DNA of 64,000 bases from Lobosporangium transversale. Lineage: Eukaryota. Where the stretch lies: assembly GCF_002105155.1 (NCBI RefSeq), contig NW_019029008.1, positions 1 through 64,000 on the forward strand. The letters are read 5' to 3'. The notes under the pieces were generated by a model. It was not told the origin of the DNA. It saw only the letters and a program-made list of their open reading frames with translations, and made no database searches. A program made the translations under genes and the position numbers. Of the stretch, positions 55,938-62,882 are shown piece after piece (position 1 is the first letter of the stretch; the number at the start of each line of letters is the position of its first letter).

Positions 55938-57919
55938 CTACTCATTGCTGCTTCTCGACGTGTAAGTATCCACTTCATCCCTGCAGCTTGCACAAGTACG
56001 CACCAAGTCCTTCACTATCTTTCGGATCTTCCGTTTCTTTGCAGAGCCTTGACTAGTCTTCTGTCTGATGTGTTTAAGGCCTTCATGACTGAGTACTTCG
56101 TGATCTCCTGCTAAACGCTTCAATATTTGAAAGGTTACATCCATATCCATATCGGCAAGCGGTGAGCTTTCAGCTTCAGCAGGGCTGGAAGTAGCACTAC
56201 TAGGTTCTGCTACGTATTCGCTGCTTGTCCTATCTCCCACGGTCCTCTCCTGTTGCAGGGCTTCTTCAACTAGCTCTTGCTCATCCTTTTTCTGTACTAC
56301 TTCGAAATGCCAGCCTTTGGTCATAGAGACCTCAGCGATCAACTGCTGGAAGTATGCTCTCTCTTGATTTTTGTATCGGTTATGTCGAATAAGCGGCCGC
56401 ATTTCTTCATCGACTGCCGGCCTTTGACAACGGAGCCGCTCACGCATTTCAGTCGGAAGGATTGGCGTTTTGGCAAAACAGTTTCGAAGCGTATGTGGCT
56501 TGATGTGACTCCATGCCTCAGGGATCAGTGCCCATGCTTCGCCGTTAGAAATAGATTTTTTGTTGCCAAAATTCAACGAGATACGACTCCGCGTCAGCGC
56601 ACAACGACATCGACATGCGCGTTCCAGAGGAAGGGATCCCTTGGAGGCATATCCGAATACAGCGACTACCAAAAAACTCGACTCCAGTAACTCAGCCTCT
56701 CGATGCTGGGGTGATAAGCGTATTCAAGCGGACGTTCTTGGAATTGCTTACTTCCGAAACAAGGAGAAGAAGTGTGGGTTGCGAGAGCTCATCATCAAAC
56801 TTTTGCAACCACTTGATGAATATACATCGATTCATCCATCCTGAATCCGCTTTCTCCATAGTCATTTTCAATGCCTTATCTTGTTCGACTTGTCTCGCGA
56901 AGTGTTTGGCTAACGAATATCAAACAAATGCAATTGTCACGAAAGGAAATAAGAAAAAATAACAGCTAACATGGACTATTACATTCAATGTATTACCGAT
57001 GACTAATGGCTTTAATGAAGTCATTGTATTGGCCATAGAGAGAGAAGTGCCAGAGGCATTGATGCAAAATAAGATAGACACCTTGCATTCTCTGAGAGCT
57101 TTGGCACCAGTTTTGGAGGTTGGTATCGTGTAGGATTTGGAATCCAGCTCTTTCAAATAGAACCCTGTTTCATCGCAATTAAATATATTATCGGGGGTGT
57201 ACTCAGCGCAGATCTGGCGAATTTTTTCGAGCTCAGGTTCAATTGCGTCCAAGTCAACCGAAGCTGCTTCTCCATGAAGTTGACAATATGAAATACGATG
57301 GCGCTTCTTAAAAGTATCGAACCAATAAGCCGAAAATGATGGCTGTGCTTCAGATAGTGTATTTCCTGATTCATCTTGAAGATCACAGAGAACCGTGTAT
57401 GTTACATTGGCTGCGTGTTTGAGCATCCTGCCGTTGATATACCGACTTTTCTTTCGTTGTCGCTGTATCCAGTAGTAGAGGACTTCCTCGAGAACCACGT
57501 TTTTTTCGCTCAACGATATAATGTGAGCCCGGGGGGTATACCTCGGCTGCAGCTCGAATTTTGTTTTCATTATGAAGTAATCGCTGAAAGCTACTTTTTG
57601 GAACGTATAACTCCTATTAAGCATCCGAAAGATTTAGGAGAAAGCTTGACTGGGAGGCAGTCTTTCCGCTGTTCAAGGTAATGATAAATATCCAATAGTT
57701 CAACTTGTTTTTCAAGGGAGTATGAGACCCTAGACATCGGGATCTCAAACTGTTTGGGGTTTGGGAGCAAAATAACAGCGGACATGTCATTTTTTCGGGC
57801 ACTCTTTAGAAGCTCACTATACCTCTGTTCATGAGTGCGGTCGAGCTCTTCCAGCTCGCGCTTTGTATATTTTTTATCATACTTAGTGGGGAGGAGAAGG
57901 AGTTTTTTATTGTTTGCAT
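55938..57919 (-). pseudogene. Disrupted pogo transposase (DD38D) with frameshifts, one intron (56996-56910) and an internal inversion
   Basis: LEEVLYYWI, FSAYWFDTFKKRH, GEAASVD, IFNCDETG, GWMN..F.KWL and AW...LRNCF lie on the minus strand; DSASAH...LPKNSTPVTQPLDAGVISVFK lies on the plus strand at ~56585-56760. Confidence 0.9.
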
Positions 57920-57992
57920 CGTTTTAATTGAACTGTGGTGATGACTGTAAAAAGATGTACTTTTTTGATTGTAAAGGCTAACAAAAAAAGTG

Positions 57993-58122
57993 TGTCATGT
58001 GAGAAATATATATGTGTGGCTTTCCAAACGTCATTTTAGAATAAAACATTTAGGGAGGTCAATTTAATCAAATTTATAGGCGTTTTTCTTAAGAAAACGC
58101 CTATAAAAATCAGATTCGACTG
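57993..58122 (-). repeat. Right terminal inverted repeat (130 bp)
   Basis: Pairs with 55748-55877. Confidence 0.95.
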
Positions 58123-58133
58123 TACATTGGATT

Positions 58134-58232
58134 ATTTTAGTATTTTGGCAATTGCCATCTGGTGGGTTTGATCTTAATCTGACATCCTGACTGTGACGTT
58201 TCCCTGAAACCTTGCACTATTTTAGTACTATG
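58134..58232 (-). repeat. Degenerate tandem duplicate of the 3' end of the ferredoxin-fusion gene
   Basis: ggtttgatcttaatctgaca occurs at ~58165 and ~58282; the copy translates GFRETSQSGCQIKIKPTRWQLPKY* versus GRRETSRLGCQIKIKPELDGMIVKLPQY*. Confidence 0.85.
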
Positions 58233-58241
58233 GTCACTATT

Positions 58242-58427
58242 TTAGTACTGTGGCAATTTCACAATCATGCCATCCAATTCAGGTTTGATCTTAATCTGAC
58301 ACCCTAGCCGAGATGTTTCTCTACGACCCACCGCATACTCTAGCATATCCTCCTCTGCATCTGTTACTACTGGTAGTCTTGCGCTGAATGGTGGCTCGAT
58401 ATACACGTGACAAGTTGCACACTCTAT

Positions 58428-58458
<31 letters not shown>

Positions 58459-60025
58459 GGTCGCCACCGAACGCATTCAGAAAATATTAGCTGCAATGTT
58501 CAAGGTCAAAAATAACATAAATGGGGATTTTTTTTTTGCTTTTCTTTTACTTACCAAGTTGGCCTCCACATGTACATTCAAGTGCCTGATAAATATCATG
58601 GCGGCTAGGATCCTTGTCCTTAACAATGTCCAGAATACTCTCACCAACTTTAGCATTGATCTCTGTTCGGACTTTTTGGAATGACTCAAAGATAACCTTG
58701 ATTCTTTGACCTTCTTCGGTCGTGGATGTTGGTGCTGTTACTGTTGATTTGCTTGACTTCTCTGAATCGACGGATAAGGCTGTACGTTGCTCCTTTAGAC
58801 CATCATCCTCATACAAATCCTCTCCTGGTAGAGAGAATAGAGATTGAGGCTGTTGTTGTCCCTGATTTTGATTCCGGGCAGTTAGCCCTTGTTTTTGTTG
58901 TTTCCGCATTTCCAACCAGTGTTCATAAAACTTGATTTGTTCTTCTTTAGTCATACCCATCCTTCCTCTCCATTTTTCAATCATGATAGGCGCCCTTTCT
59001 TTCAGTCTCTGCTCCCTTACATCTGCCGCAATACCCCCGTTCGCCAACGCATCAAACAAGATCTGCTGAGCATCCGTTGAATCTTGTTCAGACACATATC
59101 CATGCCAATCCCCTAAGGGATACATGATAGTGTTAGGGGCCCACTTATGTCCTCCAATATGACTGACTCCATACACTTTAATTGAATTCTGCAACCCAGT
59201 TGCTTGAACCATATCCTTCAAAATCCGATAAAGCTCGCCGCCTTGTTCACCACATCGACAGTCTCGTGCTCCATGAACACAGACCAGAACTGCACTCGGT
59301 TCTGGAACCAACTCGATCTGTACCAGCTCGCCACTCCCAGGTACCAATTCCATTGTAATGTTGTTACTATCGTGGTGATCGGTAGAGTCAGCGATTGCTT
59401 TCTGTATTGCTGGACGTAAAGTTCCTACAGGATATTGTTGTAAATAACGAGCCAAATCCTTAAAAGCCTCATATCGGATCGCTTTGAACTTTATATTATC
59501 TGGGAATAAAATCAGATCGTGCCTTGGACCCTTTGTTGGAAGTAGGTTTGCTTCATCTTTTACAGCATCTGATGGTTCATCCACAAAGTTGACTTTGACT
59601 TCTTGATCACGAACAACAGTCATTAATAGATTGTGATATGGATCGGCGAGCTCAGGTTTTTTGGTCCATTTTGAACCAGGGAGACCCGTGCAGATTACAA
59701 GATGACGATTATAAGCAGGCATTGAGCCCTGAATCATTTCCGTTTCCTCTTTAACTTTAGTGGACATGAAGCGACGAAGATTGGAATATGTAAGCCATTG
59801 TTGGACAGTAGGACTGCCACGGTAGGTATTATGGTGATAAGAGGCACGGGATAAAAATAATGAGAGAGAAGTCCTAGTTGTGGTGGAAAGCGTGGAACGG
59901 AGTGTACTCATTCGACAACATTGTGTGATGGTGAGAATAGAAGATCTGGATCGGACATTGTTGCATGGGATCACAAGAGTCCTCTCAAGTTTCGCTTTAG
60001 TCGCTATCCGGAATGCAGTCGACAT
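58242..60025 (-). CDS. Probable mitochondrial Aim32/Apd1-like (sucrase/ferredoxin-like) protein fused to an adrenodoxin-type [2Fe-2S] ferredoxin; 2 exons (60025-58555, 58423-58242)
   Basis: Arg/Ser/Thr-rich presequence; CVHGARDCRC plus HIGGH; C-terminal CGGQLECATC...EEDML...SRLGCQ. Confidence 0.88.
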
Positions 60026-60292
60026 TTGTAATGACGTGAATGAATGAGGGATTGTAATTCTGCTTGATGGTGACAAGATCAAGTAAATGAATCATGAATA
60101 ACAGTAACAGAATTAGCTGACTGGCTGGAACGGAGATTGCTTTTCCGAAAGCGTGAACTGTAAATTCTAAGGCACTGTTTTTCCGCCTTTGTTTTCTTCG
60201 ATGGCAATGGCAATTGTGTTTTTATTTCCTTTTTCAGTGTTATTTACATCAGGAGCTTTTTTTAAATGATACACAAGAAGATTTTTTTTTTA

Positions 60293-62882
60293 TTAAAAGT
60301 TCATAAAAGTACTCCTGCGCCAGAATGGATACCAGACGAGTGCTGAGCAGAACACGCCCAAAGTGATGGCTACGGATACATGAATCATAGTCAAGACAAA
60401 AACGAACCCTTGAGATGGATCACTTCCAATGATCGCCAAGATCCCTCGAACTCCCACACTCCCAGGCACCAACAACAAGACCCCACTCAACAATGGTACA
60501 TAACTCAACTGTCCTGTCAGTCGGCCATACAATTTACCCGTAATCCCAACACAGAAGGCAGCAATTGCTGCTGTAATCTGAGGTCCAGAACTCTTGAGGA
60601 ACAATGTGACCACAAACCCTACAGCTGTTACTAACGTCATCCCGAGCCATTGTCGAGGATGAGCATTGAACACAATATTGATGGATGCAGAGACTGCTGG
60701 GTAAATCAAGAAATACCACCATCGATCAATTGGATTTTGACATACTGAAACAGTGGTCTTGATAGAGCCGTGGGAGATCTAGTAATGTACCATATATATA
60801 AAAGCAACTGAATTGAGTTTTGAGGTCCATTGAAATGGATACTATTGTCATCAACACCTACGATAAAAAGAAAACCAGGCTTACATAATCCCACAGTTCT
60901 GCACCAATGGAGAGTCCAAACCCAAGAAAGAAAGCGTACATGAGTGCATAAAACATCCTCACTGCTCCAGAGACAATATTCCTGGACGATAATTCCATGA
61001 TGGCTTGCGTTAGGACCAGTCCAGGTAATAATACCACTATTCCTGCCAGCGCCACAGCAGAGAAACAGACCCGGTCCCCAAAGGCCTTGGCCACAAATCC
61101 CACCAAGATACTGGAAGTCATCTCAAAGACATTTCCATAGACTGGGAATTTGGAAGCCACGACAGCCAACATCCCTACCATTAATCCACAACATCCTGCC
61201 AAGAGCATATCCCAACCACCTCCATTAAACGCAAGGGGCGCTACAAATGCTGAAGATCCCATCCACCCCAACAATGTCAACCACAATGGATACATCCCCG
61301 GTTCTGATGTCAGCTGTTCTAAATCACGATTGGCTTTTTCAATTGGCATATGATCTTTAAGGACCGCAAGTGCGATCCGATGGACCTCCGCTAGCTTGTT
61401 CATATCCATGCCTTGGTTGCACTTTAAATGTCGAGTGTCACTTGTATGAGTCTCTGGGTCACTAAATGACACAGTCATACTTCCAGGTAGGAGTGCGAAC
61501 GATGCATCAACACTCATTTTCCTTGCCAAGAGCACACAAGTTTCTTCGATTCGATGAGAAGGTGCGCCATACAGAATGAGGGATTTTGCCATCATGATTA
61601 AGAATGATTGGCGACTCAGAATATCTGCAATATCACGATGGATAATTCTATTATCGAGGTCCTTAATATAGTGTTTCTTGCTTCTTTCTTTGGATGAATG
61701 AAGATGTGGATCATGGTCATTGTCGTTGCTACTTTCATGATGGAAGTGATGGCAATGGCAAGAGTGTAGAGTCTTTTTAGTCTCATCAAAAGCGAAAGAG
61801 TTGCGTGGAGAGACCTTGGGGGTGGTGGTAATGGAGGGCGACGCCGACTTGGATATACTCTTGCAATGTGTATCCGAGTTGTTTCTGGAGCGGTAATAGA
61901 GACCTTTTTTTGTTTTTTTGGGCATAAGACGCCTGACAGACGACCGATATTCATTTGACATAGGAGTGGATGATGTGGCATTTGCGGGTACAGCCACTGC
62001 GCTAGCTGCTGCTGCAACAGCAGCTTCAGTTTCATTGCGTTGTAGCTTTAAGAGATGACTAAGAACTCCTCCCTTGGATTTATTAAACCGACGATGAAGC
62101 CCCTCTTGACCCGATTGATCAACACCGTTGTAGTAGTCTTCTTCAAGATGTGTAGTAATGTTCTCCTGCCTCTTTTTTTCATCGTGATAGTCTTCTGGTG
62201 AAATCTCATCATGTTTTGAAGTGGGGTTAAAGTTTTCTTTTTCTTGCTCCACATATTTCAAATTTGCCTCGAGATCATCGTTGTCTCTCGCAGCTCTCTT
62301 ATCCTGATCCAGCTTATAGTTCCGTCTAACTGTGAAGGCTCGCTTGATCGATGCAAGTCTCGATTTATCGCTGCTACCATTTCCTCCTGGCTGTATTCCA
62401 GTTGCAATTGCATCTTCATCCCTGTCTCTGATGTCATTTGTTTTACTATCATTCATACTCGTGTCTCCCCCTGGGATTATTGTCATCTCTTGTAGTCTCT
62501 GTTGTTCTTGATGCTGCTGCTGCTGTTGTTGATGTATCAACGATGGCAATGGCACAGTACCCGAGAAACTGCCTAATAGGTCTGGATCTTGAATAGCTCT
62601 GGCATAGCGCTCGATACCCAGACTCAGTTTCCATAATTCAGTTTCAGAGAACCTCAACGGCGTCGATTCAAGAGTGGAGGAAGGAGATCCTGATGAGGCA
62701 AAAAGGACGGTAGCAGGTGTATGCAGTCTACTATCTTCGAAAGGACTAGAAGAGGGAAATGCAAAACCAGAGGATGTCCCTCCAAGCACCTCTGGACTGT
62801 TAAGTGCAATTGGTTGAATAGATTGGAGAAAGGATGTTGAAGTTGAAGTTGAAGTGGATGAGGAAGTGTCATCGCTTGTCAT
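60293..62882 (-). CDS. PRM10: Pheromone-regulated membrane protein 10 / ThrE-family transporter; 2 exons (62882-60885, 60779-60293)
   Basis: IADILSRQSFL..LILYGAPSHRIE, FSDPETHTS, VVLLPG, ELSSRNIVSGAVRMFYA, LLLVPG, VAITLGVF. Confidence 0.9.

What the first reader, a model, noticed from the sequence alone, without database searches (positions are those of the whole stretch)
58242..60025. Aim32/Apd1-type domain fused to an adrenodoxin-type ferredoxin
Seen: one reading frame carries a presequence, the C-x8-C...H-x-G-G-H motif (~59281-59147), a Gln/Ser/Thr linker and an adrenodoxin domain with C-x5-C-x2-C...C intact. The domain junction lies inside exon 1, so it is not a gene-merging artefact. Known: yeast Aim32 and Apd1 bind a 2Cys-2His [2Fe-2S] cluster and are separate proteins from Yah1/adrenodoxin. 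Inference: the fusion suggests Aim32-type domains exchange electrons with the mitochondrial ferredoxin/ferredoxin-reductase chain, forming a two-cluster electron wire.
Basis: partly seen in the sequence, partly recalled or inferred. Interest (0 to 1): 0.75.

Follow-up and report, generated by a model that had tools for sequence, protein, structure and literature searches.

The report
Fungal Aim32-ferredoxin two-cluster fusion gene
This fungal gene encodes, on one spliced transcript, an Aim32-type iron-sulfur domain joined to its own adrenodoxin-type ferredoxin, an arrangement shared by many non-yeast fungi, which likely means that the poorly understood Aim32 family receives its electrons from a mitochondrial ferredoxin.

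Summary
On the minus strand lies a two-exon gene (ATG 60025, GT..AG intron 58554-58424, stop 58244-58242) for a 550-aa protein. It has a basic, Ser/Thr-rich N-terminus and a Suc_Fer-like (Aim32/Apd1-type) domain with C249-x8-C258-x30-H289-x-G-G-H293. A low-complexity linker follows, then an adrenodoxin-type domain with C486-x5-C492-x2-C495-x36-C532, whose best solved relative is yeast Yah1 (E 4.4e-18).

A 1935-nt contig of a public run matches the spliced mRNA base for base in length and covers both domains.

The organism is Lobosporangium transversale. Its public gene model is cut short by 134 N-terminal residues.

The fusion is not peculiar to this genome. It occurs across Mortierellomycota, several chytrid orders, Gonapodya, Calcarisporiella, Dispira and many Basidiomycota. 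No named row was an ascomycete. All eight cluster ligands are invariant in 30 fusions. The fused ferredoxin domains form one branch (95/99) apart from 27 free ferredoxins.

I found no paper describing the architecture; databases name it only automatically.

The likely mechanism, inferred and not shown, is: reductase, then the fused all-Cys ferredoxin, then the higher-potential bis-His cluster, then an unknown acceptor.

Two things remain untested: whether a separate Yah1 coexists, and whether the two domains dock.

The parts
58052..60117 (-). Extent of the spliced transcript contig (5' UTR 60117-60026, 3' UTR 58241-58052)
   Evidence: record 2: length 1935, lying on 60117-58555 and 58419-58052. 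2066 nt of genome minus the 131-nt intron equals 1935. Neighbouring contigs are separate, and depth is 0 at 60168-60251.
58555..60025 (-). CDS exon 1 (aa 1-490 and the first base of codon 491): presequence, Suc_Fer-like domain, linker, first half of the Fer2 domain
   Evidence: Open frame from ATG 60025; in-frame stop upstream at 60094-60092.
58424..58554 (-). Intron, 131 nt, GTAAGT...ATAG, phase 1, containing a 28-nt A run (58431-58458)
   Evidence: Absent from the transcript contig. The ortholog model P0031 retains an insert at the same place.
58242..58423 (-). CDS exon 2 (aa 491-550 plus TAA stop): second half of the Fer2 domain
   Evidence: Identical to the C-terminus of P0003.
59741..60025 (-). 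Predicted mitochondrial presequence region (aa 1-95)
   Evidence: residues 1-90 hold 14 Arg/Lys, 1 Asp/Glu and 29 Ser/Thr. pLDDT is below 50 for residues 1-102. The same bias is seen in 19 orthologs. No targeting predictor was available, so this is inferred.
59078..59731 (-). Suc_Fer-like (Aim32/Apd1-type thioredoxin-like ferredoxin) domain, aa 99-316
   Evidence: Pfam PF06999, E 3e-28. The best 8 Foldseek matches of the model are thioredoxin-like [2Fe-2S] ferredoxins. The ortholog model scores Z 12.6 against 1f37.
59147..59281 (-). Bis-Cys/bis-His ligand motif C249-x8-C258-x30-H289-I-G-G-H293, with a third near-invariant Cys, C256
   Evidence: Invariant in 30 fusions. The motif definition is from PMC11138216.
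58961..58972 (-). Invariant W352-R-G-R355 motif in the helical extension after the cluster domain
   Evidence: Invariant in A2, including stand-alone family members. R and G are invariant and W and the second R nearly so in A3.
58706..58903 (-). Low-complexity Gln/Ser/Thr linker (aa 375-440), predicted disordered
   Evidence: pLDDT is below 50 for 391-438. The length between motifs varies from 95 to 194 residues among fusions.
58787..58840 (-). Conserved acidic linker motif LFSLPGEDLYEDDGLKEQ (aa 396-413), specific to Mortierellomycota
   Evidence: Alignment A1 columns about 490-520. Absent from the chytrid members.
58245..58705 (-). Adrenodoxin-type Fer2 domain (aa 441-550; interrupted by the intron 58424-58554). 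Ligand codons: C486 at 58568-58570, C492 at 58419-58421, C495 at 58410-58412, C532 at 58299-58301. Acidic helix D-A-E-E-D-M-L-E.
   Evidence: PDB sequence search: Yah1 2mjd E 4.4e-18, S. pombe Etp1 ferredoxin 2wlb 1.6e-15, adrenodoxins about 1e-14. Ligands are invariant.

Best explanation
This is an expressed nuclear gene of Lobosporangium transversale for a 550-aa protein that joins an Aim32/Apd1-type thioredoxin-like ferredoxin domain (2Cys-2His ligand set) to an adrenodoxin/Yah1-type ferredoxin domain (4Cys ligand set). It is predicted to be mitochondrial, and it likely works as a tethered two-cluster electron relay.

Shown here:
- the gene structure;
- a single spliced transcript contig that covers both domains;
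- both domain identities;
- invariance of all eight ligand residues in 30 fusions from several fungal phyla;
- one common branch for the fused ferredoxin domains.

Inferred:
- The basic N-terminus would target the protein to mitochondria.
- An Arh1-type NAD(P)H ferredoxin reductase would dock on the conserved acidic helix of the C-terminal domain and reduce its low-potential all-Cys [2Fe-2S] cluster.
- That domain, held on a flexible linker, would pass the electron to the higher-potential, proton-coupled bis-His cluster of the N-terminal domain, in the same chain or in a dimer partner.
- The N-terminal domain would then reduce a still unknown acceptor, either a small redox-active molecule or a protein thiol/disulfide.

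By extension, stand-alone family members such as yeast Aim32 would take electrons from free mitochondrial ferredoxin.
For: Gene and splice.

Transcript: contig record 2 is 1935 nt, exactly the spliced mRNA from 60117 to 58052. Neighbouring intergenic DNA is uncovered.

Domains:
- PF06999 at 99.6 bits.
- Thioredoxin-like ferredoxin fold (ortholog Z 12.6, rmsd 2.5 A over 101 residues).
- Fer2 part against Yah1 at E 4.4e-18, with all four Cys aligned.

Conservation:
- 37 rows (named Mortierellomycota or unnamed close relatives, 50-100% identical) and 4 Spizellomycetales rows.
- 50 of the 150 listed 50%-identity representatives carry both domains.
- 18 of 20 looked-up fusions had names, and all 18 are fungi of Chytridiomycota, Monoblepharidomycota, Mucoromycota, Kickxellomycotina or Basidiomycota.
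- Atlas clusters with PF06999 in 100% and PF00111 in 47% or 24% of members, mostly Basidiomycota (a lead only).
- All 8 ligands are invariant in 30 fusions.
- 36 of 36 fusions examined share the CGG/CEG/CDG-x-x-E-C-A-T/S-C signature.
- The fused Fer2 domains are one side of a branch, support 95/99, against 27 free ferredoxins.

Direction of flow:
- Each Cys-to-His exchange raises a [2Fe-2S] potential by up to about 200 mV and allows proton coupling (passages of 10.64898/2026.10.21.760712).
- [2Fe-2S] ferredoxins in general lie at -500 to -150 mV (PMC11138216).
- The acidic helix F is the reductase-recognition element of mitochondrial ferredoxins (PMC11515921). It is kept here as DAEEDMLE, with E, D, M, L invariant or nearly so.

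Precedent for a mitochondrial ferredoxin fused to its own client: S. pombe Etp1/Cox15 (PMC11408685; 2wlb).

The function and partners of Aim32 are described as not well understood (PMC8482512).
Against: - No cluster binding, localisation, reduction or interdomain transfer was measured.
- Pfam's Fer2 model fails on this protein at E 0.01.
- The linker is long and predicted disordered. A fixed docking geometry is therefore not supported. The chytrid short-linker model gave only pTM 0.70, which does not settle domain packing.
- No fungal stand-alone Yah1 was in the Fer2 tree, so 'separate lineage from Yah1' is not proven.
- Whether yeast Aim32 belongs to the fusion-rich branch of the family was not resolved. 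The TLF tree is weakly supported (81 at the deep split) and no ascomycete row was identified.
- The one transcript contig cannot exclude shorter isoforms.
Confidence: 0.55

Rival explanations
1. Etp1-like delivery form. The fused Fer2 domain would be the organism's general mitochondrial ferredoxin (Yah1 equivalent). It would be made as a fusion and released by cleavage in the linker, so the fusion would say little about Aim32's redox partner.
For: S. pombe encodes its ferredoxin as an Etp1/Cox15 fusion (PMC11408685). The linker here is long and predicted disordered. No stand-alone Mortierellomycota Yah1 turned up in the two searches that could have shown one, but both were word-limited or capped, so this is weak.
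Against: The fused domains form their own branch, away from 12 eukaryotic mitochondrial ferredoxins. They carry a distinct ECATC signature instead of the ACSTC of Yah1. The Mortierellomycota domain ends 18 residues after the last Cys, with no C-terminal tail, whereas the tail of FDX2 is reported as crucial for Fe/S biogenesis (PMC11515921). Some fusions have very short linkers, for example 95-101 residues between motifs in P0100 and Synchytrium P0093.
Confidence: 0.12
2. Coupled but reversed or branched flow. The bis-His domain would take electrons (and protons) from a substrate or partner, and the Fer2 domain would be the exit towards ferredoxin clients. Alternatively, the two clusters would serve separate partners and merely share a polypeptide.
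For: Nothing measured here fixes the direction. Aim32 was reported to bind several redox partners (Erv1, Osm1) in yeast (PMC8482512).
Against: Going from a bis-His to an all-Cys cluster would be uphill by the general rule quoted. Joint invariance of both ligand sets over several phyla argues against unrelated functions.
Confidence: 0.1
3. The Fer2 domain would be a regulatory, structural or cluster-handling module (for example a redox sensor or a private cluster donor for the neighbouring labile site) rather than an electron donor.
For: A regulatory role has been proposed for thioredoxin-like ferredoxins (PMC11138216). A few fusions replace the His after the third Cys (Melampsora, Gonapodya, P0099).
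Against: The reductase-recognition helix and all four Cys are conserved as in working electron carriers.
Confidence: 0.07
4. Annotation or assembly artefact: two neighbouring genes read as one.
For: Some database members with extra domains do look like merged models (DUF1996 in P0094, LRR in P0150).
Against: One open frame in exon 1 spans the domain junction. One transcript contig covers both domains. The same arrangement recurs in dozens of genomes.
Confidence: 0.01

Closest known systems
Saccharomyces cerevisiae Aim32 (mitochondrial) and Apd1 (cytosolic), bis-histidinyl [2Fe-2S] thioredoxin-like ferredoxins, Pfam PF06999
   Same: The same Pfam family. The same C-x8-C-x(24-75)-H-x-G-G-H ligand motif, here with x30. 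A thioredoxin-like ferredoxin fold. Like Aim32, a basic N-terminal extension.
   Different: This protein carries a linker and a C-terminal adrenodoxin-type domain. It lacks the C-terminal [LIM]-[DES]-[WF] tripeptide of Apd1-type CIA clients and ends in P-Q-Y. Orthology to Aim32 as opposed to Apd1 was not resolved.
Yah1 / FDX2 / adrenodoxin (mitochondrial [2Fe-2S] ferredoxins)
   Same: C-x5-C-x2-C-x36-C ligands, the SRLGCQI motif and an acidic helix F. The best solved relative is Yah1 (E 4.4e-18).
   Different: It is not free-standing. It has the signature T-C-G-G-x-L-E-C-A-T-C instead of A-C-x-G-S-x-A-C-S-T-C. It has no C-terminal tail. It sits on a separate branch from 12 eukaryotic mitochondrial ferredoxins.
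Schizosaccharomyces pombe Etp1 (ferredoxin fused with heme a synthase Cox15)
   Same: A mitochondrial adrenodoxin-type ferredoxin at the C-terminus of a fusion with a protein that needs electrons. Its ferredoxin domain (2wlb) matches at E 1.6e-15.
   Different: The partner is a heme enzyme, not a second iron-sulfur domain. That Etp1 is processed into two proteins is my recollection, not something a call showed.
Ferredoxin-to-Rieske step of bacterial Rieske oxygenase systems
   Same: Works alike by inference: a reductase, an all-Cys [2Fe-2S] ferredoxin, then a 2Cys-2His [2Fe-2S] cluster with proton coupling.
   Different: No homology of the bis-His domain to the Rieske fold. No oxygenase domain. 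This is an analogy from established knowledge and was not tested here.
Spizellomycetales triple fusions (P0040-P0043): Suc_Fer-like + Fer2 + FAM210A/B domain
   Same: Orthologous first two domains with the same signatures.
   Different: They carry a third, C-terminal FAM210A/B (DUF1279) domain (E 1.7e-11 and 2.9e-10) that the window's protein lacks.

Membership tests
Suc_Fer-like / Aim32-Apd1-type thioredoxin-like ferredoxin (PF06999) | Match to the Pfam model above its gathering score | tested here: met
   99.6 bits against a cut-off of 34.9, E 3e-28, residues 99-316.
Suc_Fer-like / Aim32-Apd1-type thioredoxin-like ferredoxin (PF06999) | Ligand motif C-x8-C-x(24-75)-H-x-G-G-H (as given in PMC11138216) | tested here: met
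   C249-x8-C258-x30-H289-I-G-G-H293. Invariant in A2 and A3.
Suc_Fer-like / Aim32-Apd1-type thioredoxin-like ferredoxin (PF06999) | Thioredoxin-like [2Fe-2S] ferredoxin fold around the ligands | tested here: met
   Window model: the 8 best Foldseek rows are 1f37, 1m2a/b/d, 5abr and HydB (probability 0.99-1.00, E 2-4e-3). Ortholog model: 1f37 at Z 12.6, rmsd 2.5 A over 101 residues.
Suc_Fer-like / Aim32-Apd1-type thioredoxin-like ferredoxin (PF06999) | Binds a bis-His/bis-Cys [2Fe-2S] cluster | not testable with these tools
   Needs UV-vis, EPR or Mossbauer spectroscopy of the purified protein.
Aim32 subtype (mitochondrial) | Mitochondrial targeting | tested here: inconclusive
   Composition only: 14 basic and 1 acidic residue in the first 90. 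No predictor and no experiment.
Apd1 subtype (cytosolic CIA client) | C-terminal [LIM]-[DES]-[WF] tripeptide (abstract of PMC10245660 in the listing) | tested here: not met
   The protein ends ...K-L-P-Q-Y.
Adrenodoxin-type [2Fe-2S] ferredoxin | Four Cys in the adrenodoxin pattern C-x5-C-x2-C-x(35-37)-C. The x2 form is what I recall and what the Yah1 alignment shows; PMC11138216 prints the middle of the motif as Cys-His-X-Cys. | tested here: met
   C486, C492, C495 and C532 (x36). They align with the Yah1 ligands.
Adrenodoxin-type [2Fe-2S] ferredoxin | Significant sequence similarity to solved adrenodoxin-type ferredoxins | tested here: met
   38 distinct PDB sequences at E <= 0.01. The best are Yah1 at 4.4e-18, FdVI at 2.7e-16 and Etp1fd at 1.6e-15.
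Adrenodoxin-type [2Fe-2S] ferredoxin | Match to Pfam Fer2 (PF00111) | tested here: inconclusive
   No match at E <= 0.01 for P0003, P0006 and P0013. Chytrid orthologs pass (25.8 and 31.7 bits against a cut-off of 21). The model is also weak on true adrenodoxins (Vespa P0074: 24.3 bits).
Adrenodoxin-type [2Fe-2S] ferredoxin | Acidic partner-recognition helix F | tested here: met
   D-A-E-E-D-M-L-E-Y-A. E, D, M, L and A are invariant or nearly so in 30 fusions. The role of the helix is from PMC11515921.
Canonical Yah1/FDX2 ortholog | Free-standing protein with a functional C-terminal tail, grouping with mitochondrial ferredoxins | tested here: not met
   It is fused. It ends 18 residues after the last Cys. 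It lies on a separate branch from 12 eukaryotic mitochondrial ferredoxins, though no fungal Yah1 was in the tree.

The most novel reading that the evidence does not exclude
The ancestral fungal Aim32-type protein was a self-contained two-cluster module with its own dedicated ferredoxin. Yeasts and some mushrooms lost the ferredoxin half and now use free Yah1 in trans. That would name Yah1/Arh1 as the long-sought electron donor of Aim32. It would also define a previously unrecognised branch of the mitochondrial ferredoxin network, which in spizellomycete chytrids is additionally fused to a FAM210 domain and so links that enigmatic family to iron-sulfur redox chemistry.
Probability: 0.3. Interest if true: 0.75.

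Novelty: new variant of a known kind. Interest (0 to 1): 0.55.

Why it matters
Aim32, Apd1 and thioredoxin-like ferredoxins in general have a well-described cluster chemistry but no agreed function or redox partner (PMC8482512 and PMC11138216, passages read). A fusion kept for the whole history of the fungi, with every ligand intact, is a natural experiment that names a partner: an adrenodoxin-type ferredoxin.

That turns an open question into bench tests:
- Can Yah1/Arh1/NADPH reduce Aim32?
- Does the fused protein show two clusters with ordered potentials?

It also flags a divergent, unstudied lineage of mitochondrial-type ferredoxins, and it corrects the public gene model of this species.

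The value is limited because the architecture is common in sequence databases and this scan has already noted it in another genome. This window adds one more, transcript-supported, member rather than a unique case.

Tried and rejected
1. Complex prediction of the two domains (complex prediction) never ran. The queue was full, and the calls in between were not sent on. Docking is therefore untested.

2. The window's own genome is not held. I could not search it for stand-alone Yah1, Arh1, Aim32 or Apd1.

3. Search for a stand-alone Mortierellomycota Yah1.
- The Fer2 region, searched against shorter proteins, gave only 29 candidates: fragments of fusions, bacterial ferredoxins and one insect adrenodoxin-like protein.
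- A canonical ferredoxin (P0054) searched against longer proteins gave 1061 hits, of which 120 were listed. The named rows among them were bacterial, plant or algal, and none was fungal.
- The second Atlas call returned only arthropod clusters.
- None of this is evidence of absence.

4. RNA holders. The look-up of sequencing runs listed no holder on record as RNA and only one run whose kind is a guess. I treat its contig as RNA-derived because it lacks the intron and the intergenic DNA is uncovered. There is no second, independent run.

5. PDB sequence search with exon 1 alone gave 0 matches. The Suc_Fer-like family has no solved sequence relative.

6. Pfam on the exon-2 piece alone gave nothing.

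7. The AlphaFold model of the window's exon-1 protein has mean pLDDT 63.8. The chytrid full-length model has pLDDT 80 and pTM 0.70. Neither tells how the domains pack, and no coordinates were available to measure a cluster-to-cluster distance.

8. The TLF-domain tree of 142 rows is poorly resolved (76 of 139 forks open). 45 of 51 fusion rows fall in one half, together with 26 stand-alone rows, but support for the split is 81. Only 4 of the 10 stand-alone rows looked up had names (Mycoemilia, Volvariella, Crepidotus, Pythium). The position of yeast Aim32 and Apd1 stays unknown.

9. Earlier notes of this scan: nothing for this genome or by sequence. One hit by words.

10. The founding paper (Stegmaier et al. 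2019, JACS) is not held. It may contain a survey of domain architectures that I could not see. Supplements of the papers cited were not opened.
Full report
**What is in the sequence**

The finding lies on the minus strand.
- An ATG at 60025-60023 follows an in-frame stop at 60094-60092. It opens a frame that runs to 58555.
- A 131-nt intron follows (58554-58424, GTAAGT...ATAG, holding a 28-nt A run).
- A second exon, 58423-58242, ends in TAA.
- The spliced CDS is 1653 nt, giving 550 residues.
C249 starts at 59281 and H293 ends at 59147.
- The domain junction, the whole linker and the first ferredoxin ligand (C486) are in exon 1. The intron cuts inside the ferredoxin domain, not between the domains.

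**Is it transcribed as one unit**

One public run holds the stretch. Its kind is only guessed. Laid on 57900-60400, one contig of 1935 nt covers 60117-58555 and 58419-58052.
- The genomic span is 2066 nt. Minus the 131-nt intron this gives exactly 1935.
- The four letters between the two pieces fall in the A-run zone that the tool masks. For that reason the joint was dropped from its joint table.
- The flanking intergenic DNA is uncovered (depth 0 at 60168-60251), and the neighbouring genes are on separate contigs.

I read this as a spliced mRNA with a 92-nt 5' UTR and a 190-nt 3' UTR that spans both domains. It is one contig from one study, so it cannot exclude other isoforms.

**Whose gene it is**

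The word-indexed protein search returned a 416-aa protein of Lobosporangium transversale (BCR41DRAFT_372338), 100% identical. It equals residues 135-550 of my model.

The public model therefore starts at an internal Met. It lacks the presequence and the first strand and helix of the N-terminal domain. The transcript contig and 16 full-length orthologs support the longer form.

**The two domains**

*N-terminal domain.*
- Pfam Suc_Fer-like, E 3e-28, residues 99-316.
- The published ligand motif C-x8-C-x(24-75)-H-x-G-G-H (PMC11138216, passages) is present as C249-x8-C258-x30-H289-I-G-G-H293.
- There is no solved sequence relative.
- An AlphaFold model of the exon-1 protein is confident for about 103-330. 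Its eight best Foldseek matches are thioredoxin-like [2Fe-2S] ferredoxins (1f37, 1m2a/b/d, 5abr, HydB; probability 0.99-1.00, E 2-4e-3).
- A model of a short chytrid ortholog (P0084, pLDDT 80) gave Z 12.6 to 1f37 over 101 residues for the ligand-bearing half. A second, N-terminal thioredoxin-like subdomain gave Z about 6-8.

*C-terminal domain.*
- Pfam's Fer2 model does not reach E 0.01 on this protein.
- A search of PDB sequences gives 38 distinct chains, nearly all adrenodoxin-type. They are led by yeast Yah1 (E 4.4e-18), Rhodobacter FdVI, S. pombe Etp1 ferredoxin, adrenodoxins, putidaredoxin and human FDX2. All four Cys are aligned, along with the SRLGCQIK motif.

*N-terminus and linker.*
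- The N-terminal 90 residues hold 14 basic and 1 acidic residue and 29 Ser/Thr. The orthologs show the same bias. This fits a mitochondrial presequence but was not tested with a predictor.
- Residues about 375-440 are a Gln/Ser/Thr-rich linker predicted disordered. Within it is a Mortierellomycota-specific acidic motif, LFSLPGEDLYEDDGLKEQ.

**How widespread it is**

One search listed 45 proteins:
- 37 are rows from named Mortierellomycota genera or unnamed close relatives;
- 4 are from Spizellomycetales and carry a third domain, FAM210A/B (confirmed);
- 4 are other Suc_Fer-like proteins.

A profile of 21 fusions searched against 1.84 billion representatives gave 8086 hits at E <= 0.001 and 79 at <= 1e-30. 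I re-scanned the stored proteins with separate profiles of the two halves.
- 50 of the 150 listed representatives have both halves.
- 47 of those 50 were new.
- 24 of those 47 carry both complete ligand patterns. The rest have partial ferredoxin matches, which I did not inspect one by one.

I looked up 20 of the new ones. 18 had names, and all 18 are fungi:
- Chytrids and relatives: Polychytrium, Cladochytrium, Chytriomyces, Phlyctochytrium, Synchytrium, Gonapodya.
- Calcarisporiella and Dispira.
- Basidiomycota: Tremella, Kwoniella, Cryptotrichosporon, Rhodotorula, Sporobolomyces, Rhizoctonia, Phaffia, Melampsora, Tulasnella, Clavulina.

No named fusion was an ascomycete, but this is a sample and not a census. 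The protein atlas lists clusters with PF06999 in all members and PF00111 in 47% or 24%, mostly Basidiomycota (a lead only).

In an alignment of 30 fusions all eight ligands are invariant. 36 of 36 fusions examined share a C-G/E/D-G-x-x-E-C-A-T/S-C signature that the free ferredoxins lack.

In a careful tree of 59 ferredoxin domains, the 32 fused ones are one side of a branch (95/99) against 15 bacterial and 12 eukaryotic mitochondrial ferredoxins. This fits a single old fusion and a divergent ferredoxin lineage. The caveat is that no fungal free Yah1 was available for the tree.

The tree of the other domain is weak. 45 of 51 fused rows share one half with 26 stand-alone rows. That half includes the Agaricales Volvariella, Crepidotus and Agrocybe, which hints at secondary loss. 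17 of the 18 rows that end in Trp, as Apd1-type CIA clients do, sit in the other half.

**How it most likely works**

*Shown:* one gene, one transcript contig spanning both domains, two cluster-type domains, joint conservation.

*Inferred from established knowledge:*
- All-Cys [2Fe-2S] ferredoxins are low-potential carriers (PMC11138216).
- Each Cys-to-His change raises the potential by up to about 200 mV and brings proton coupling, as in Rieske proteins and Apd1 (preprint 10.64898/2026.10.21.760712, passages).
- The acidic helix F of mitochondrial ferredoxins is the docking site for the reductase (PMC11515921, passages). It is conserved here.

The downhill path is therefore: NAD(P)H, then an Arh1-type reductase, then the fused ferredoxin, then the bis-His cluster, then an unknown acceptor. 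The flexible tether raises the local concentration rather than fixing a geometry. This resembles the ferredoxin-to-Rieske step of bacterial oxygenase systems. It also resembles the S. pombe Etp1/Cox15 fusion, a mitochondrial ferredoxin tied to its client (PMC11408685).

*Rivals:*
- An Etp1-like precursor that merely delivers the general ferredoxin.
- Reversed or independent flow.
- A non-carrier role for the Fer2 domain.
- An artefact, which is excluded.

The first rival is weakened by the distinct branch and signature, and by the missing C-terminal tail that FDX2 needs for Fe/S biogenesis. It cannot be closed without the genome.

**Is it known**

The searches were:
- 'Aim32, Apd1, 2Fe-2S';
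- the family names and 'thioredoxin-like ferredoxin';
- 'bishistidinyl, Apd1, redox potential';
- 'Aim32, Yah1, Arh1, adrenodoxin, domain fusion'.

None found a paper that describes the fusion or links Aim32 to Yah1/Arh1.
- The Aim32 paper (PMC8482512) has no occurrence of Yah1, Arh1 or adrenodoxin, and calls the function of the family not well understood.
- The two papers holding both Aim32 and a ferredoxin term only list proteins.
- The Apd1 papers read by term search do not mention a fusion.
- The founding JACS paper of 2019 is not held and might survey architectures.
- Databases already hold these proteins under automatic names such as '2Fe-2S ferredoxin-type domain-containing protein'.
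- An earlier report of this scan reached the same reading in another genome. It is not independent evidence.

**Verdict**

The case is one member of a widespread, unpublished fungal architecture rather than a singular oddity.

Noticed in passing
window 58124-58322 (minus-strand 3' UTR and end of the CDS): The 3' UTR carries a degenerate direct copy of the last part of the coding sequence. 58165-58205 is 83% identical to 58282-58322. TATTTTAGTA-type copies lie at 58133, 58218 and 58238. The transcript contig runs through all of it.
   Followed up: partly
window 59624-60025: The public gene model of this species (P0003, BCR41DRAFT_372338) starts at Met135. It omits the presequence and the first strand and helix of the N-terminal domain. 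The transcript contig and the orthologs support the ATG at 60025.
   Followed up: yes
P0040-P0043 (Spizellomycetales orthologs), residues about 450-620: In four spizellomycete chytrids the same two domains are followed by a FAM210A/B (DUF1279) domain. This is a three-way fusion that ties this little-understood mitochondrial family to the two iron-sulfur domains.
   Followed up: partly
P0138 (791 aa, unnamed source); P0094 (Rhodotorula); P0150: Some database members carry further domains: Suc_Fer-like + LIAS_N + Radical_SAM (lipoyl synthase), DUF1996 + Suc_Fer-like + Fer2, and Suc_Fer-like + LRR. P0138 and P0150 are near-identical in the shared core, so at least some of these are probably merged gene models. 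The lipoyl synthase case would be interesting if real.
   Followed up: no
P0003, P0006, P0013 against Pfam PF00111: Pfam's Fer2 model misses the ferredoxin domain of the Mortierellomycota members at E 0.01. Architecture queries for PF06999+PF00111 will therefore under-count this family.
   Followed up: yes
model of P0084, residues 28-135 and 135-235: The Suc_Fer-like region folds as two thioredoxin-like subdomains. Only the second carries the cluster ligands (Z 12.6 to 1f37). The first resembles thioredoxins and a Rhodobacter thioredoxin-like ferredoxin (Z 6-8.3).
   Followed up: partly
window 56920-57633 (-) and 60293-60778 (-): Neighbours. Downstream is a fragment with a Tc5 transposase DNA-binding domain (E 8.5e-11). 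Upstream is the last exon of a ThrE-family putative threonine/serine exporter (E 2.9e-10), ending about 175 nt before the fusion gene's transcript start.
   Followed up: partly
P0144, P0172, P0044 (Volvariella, Crepidotus, Agrocybe): Stand-alone Suc_Fer-like proteins of Agaricales sit among the basidiomycete fusions in the domain tree. This suggests secondary loss (or separation) of the ferredoxin half in that order. The tree is weakly supported.
   Followed up: partly
PMC7140478 against PMC11408685: A heme review states that in S. pombe Yah1 and Arh1 are parts of a tandem fusion. A later paper describes Etp1 as a ferredoxin/Cox15 fusion. The two statements disagree.
   Followed up: no
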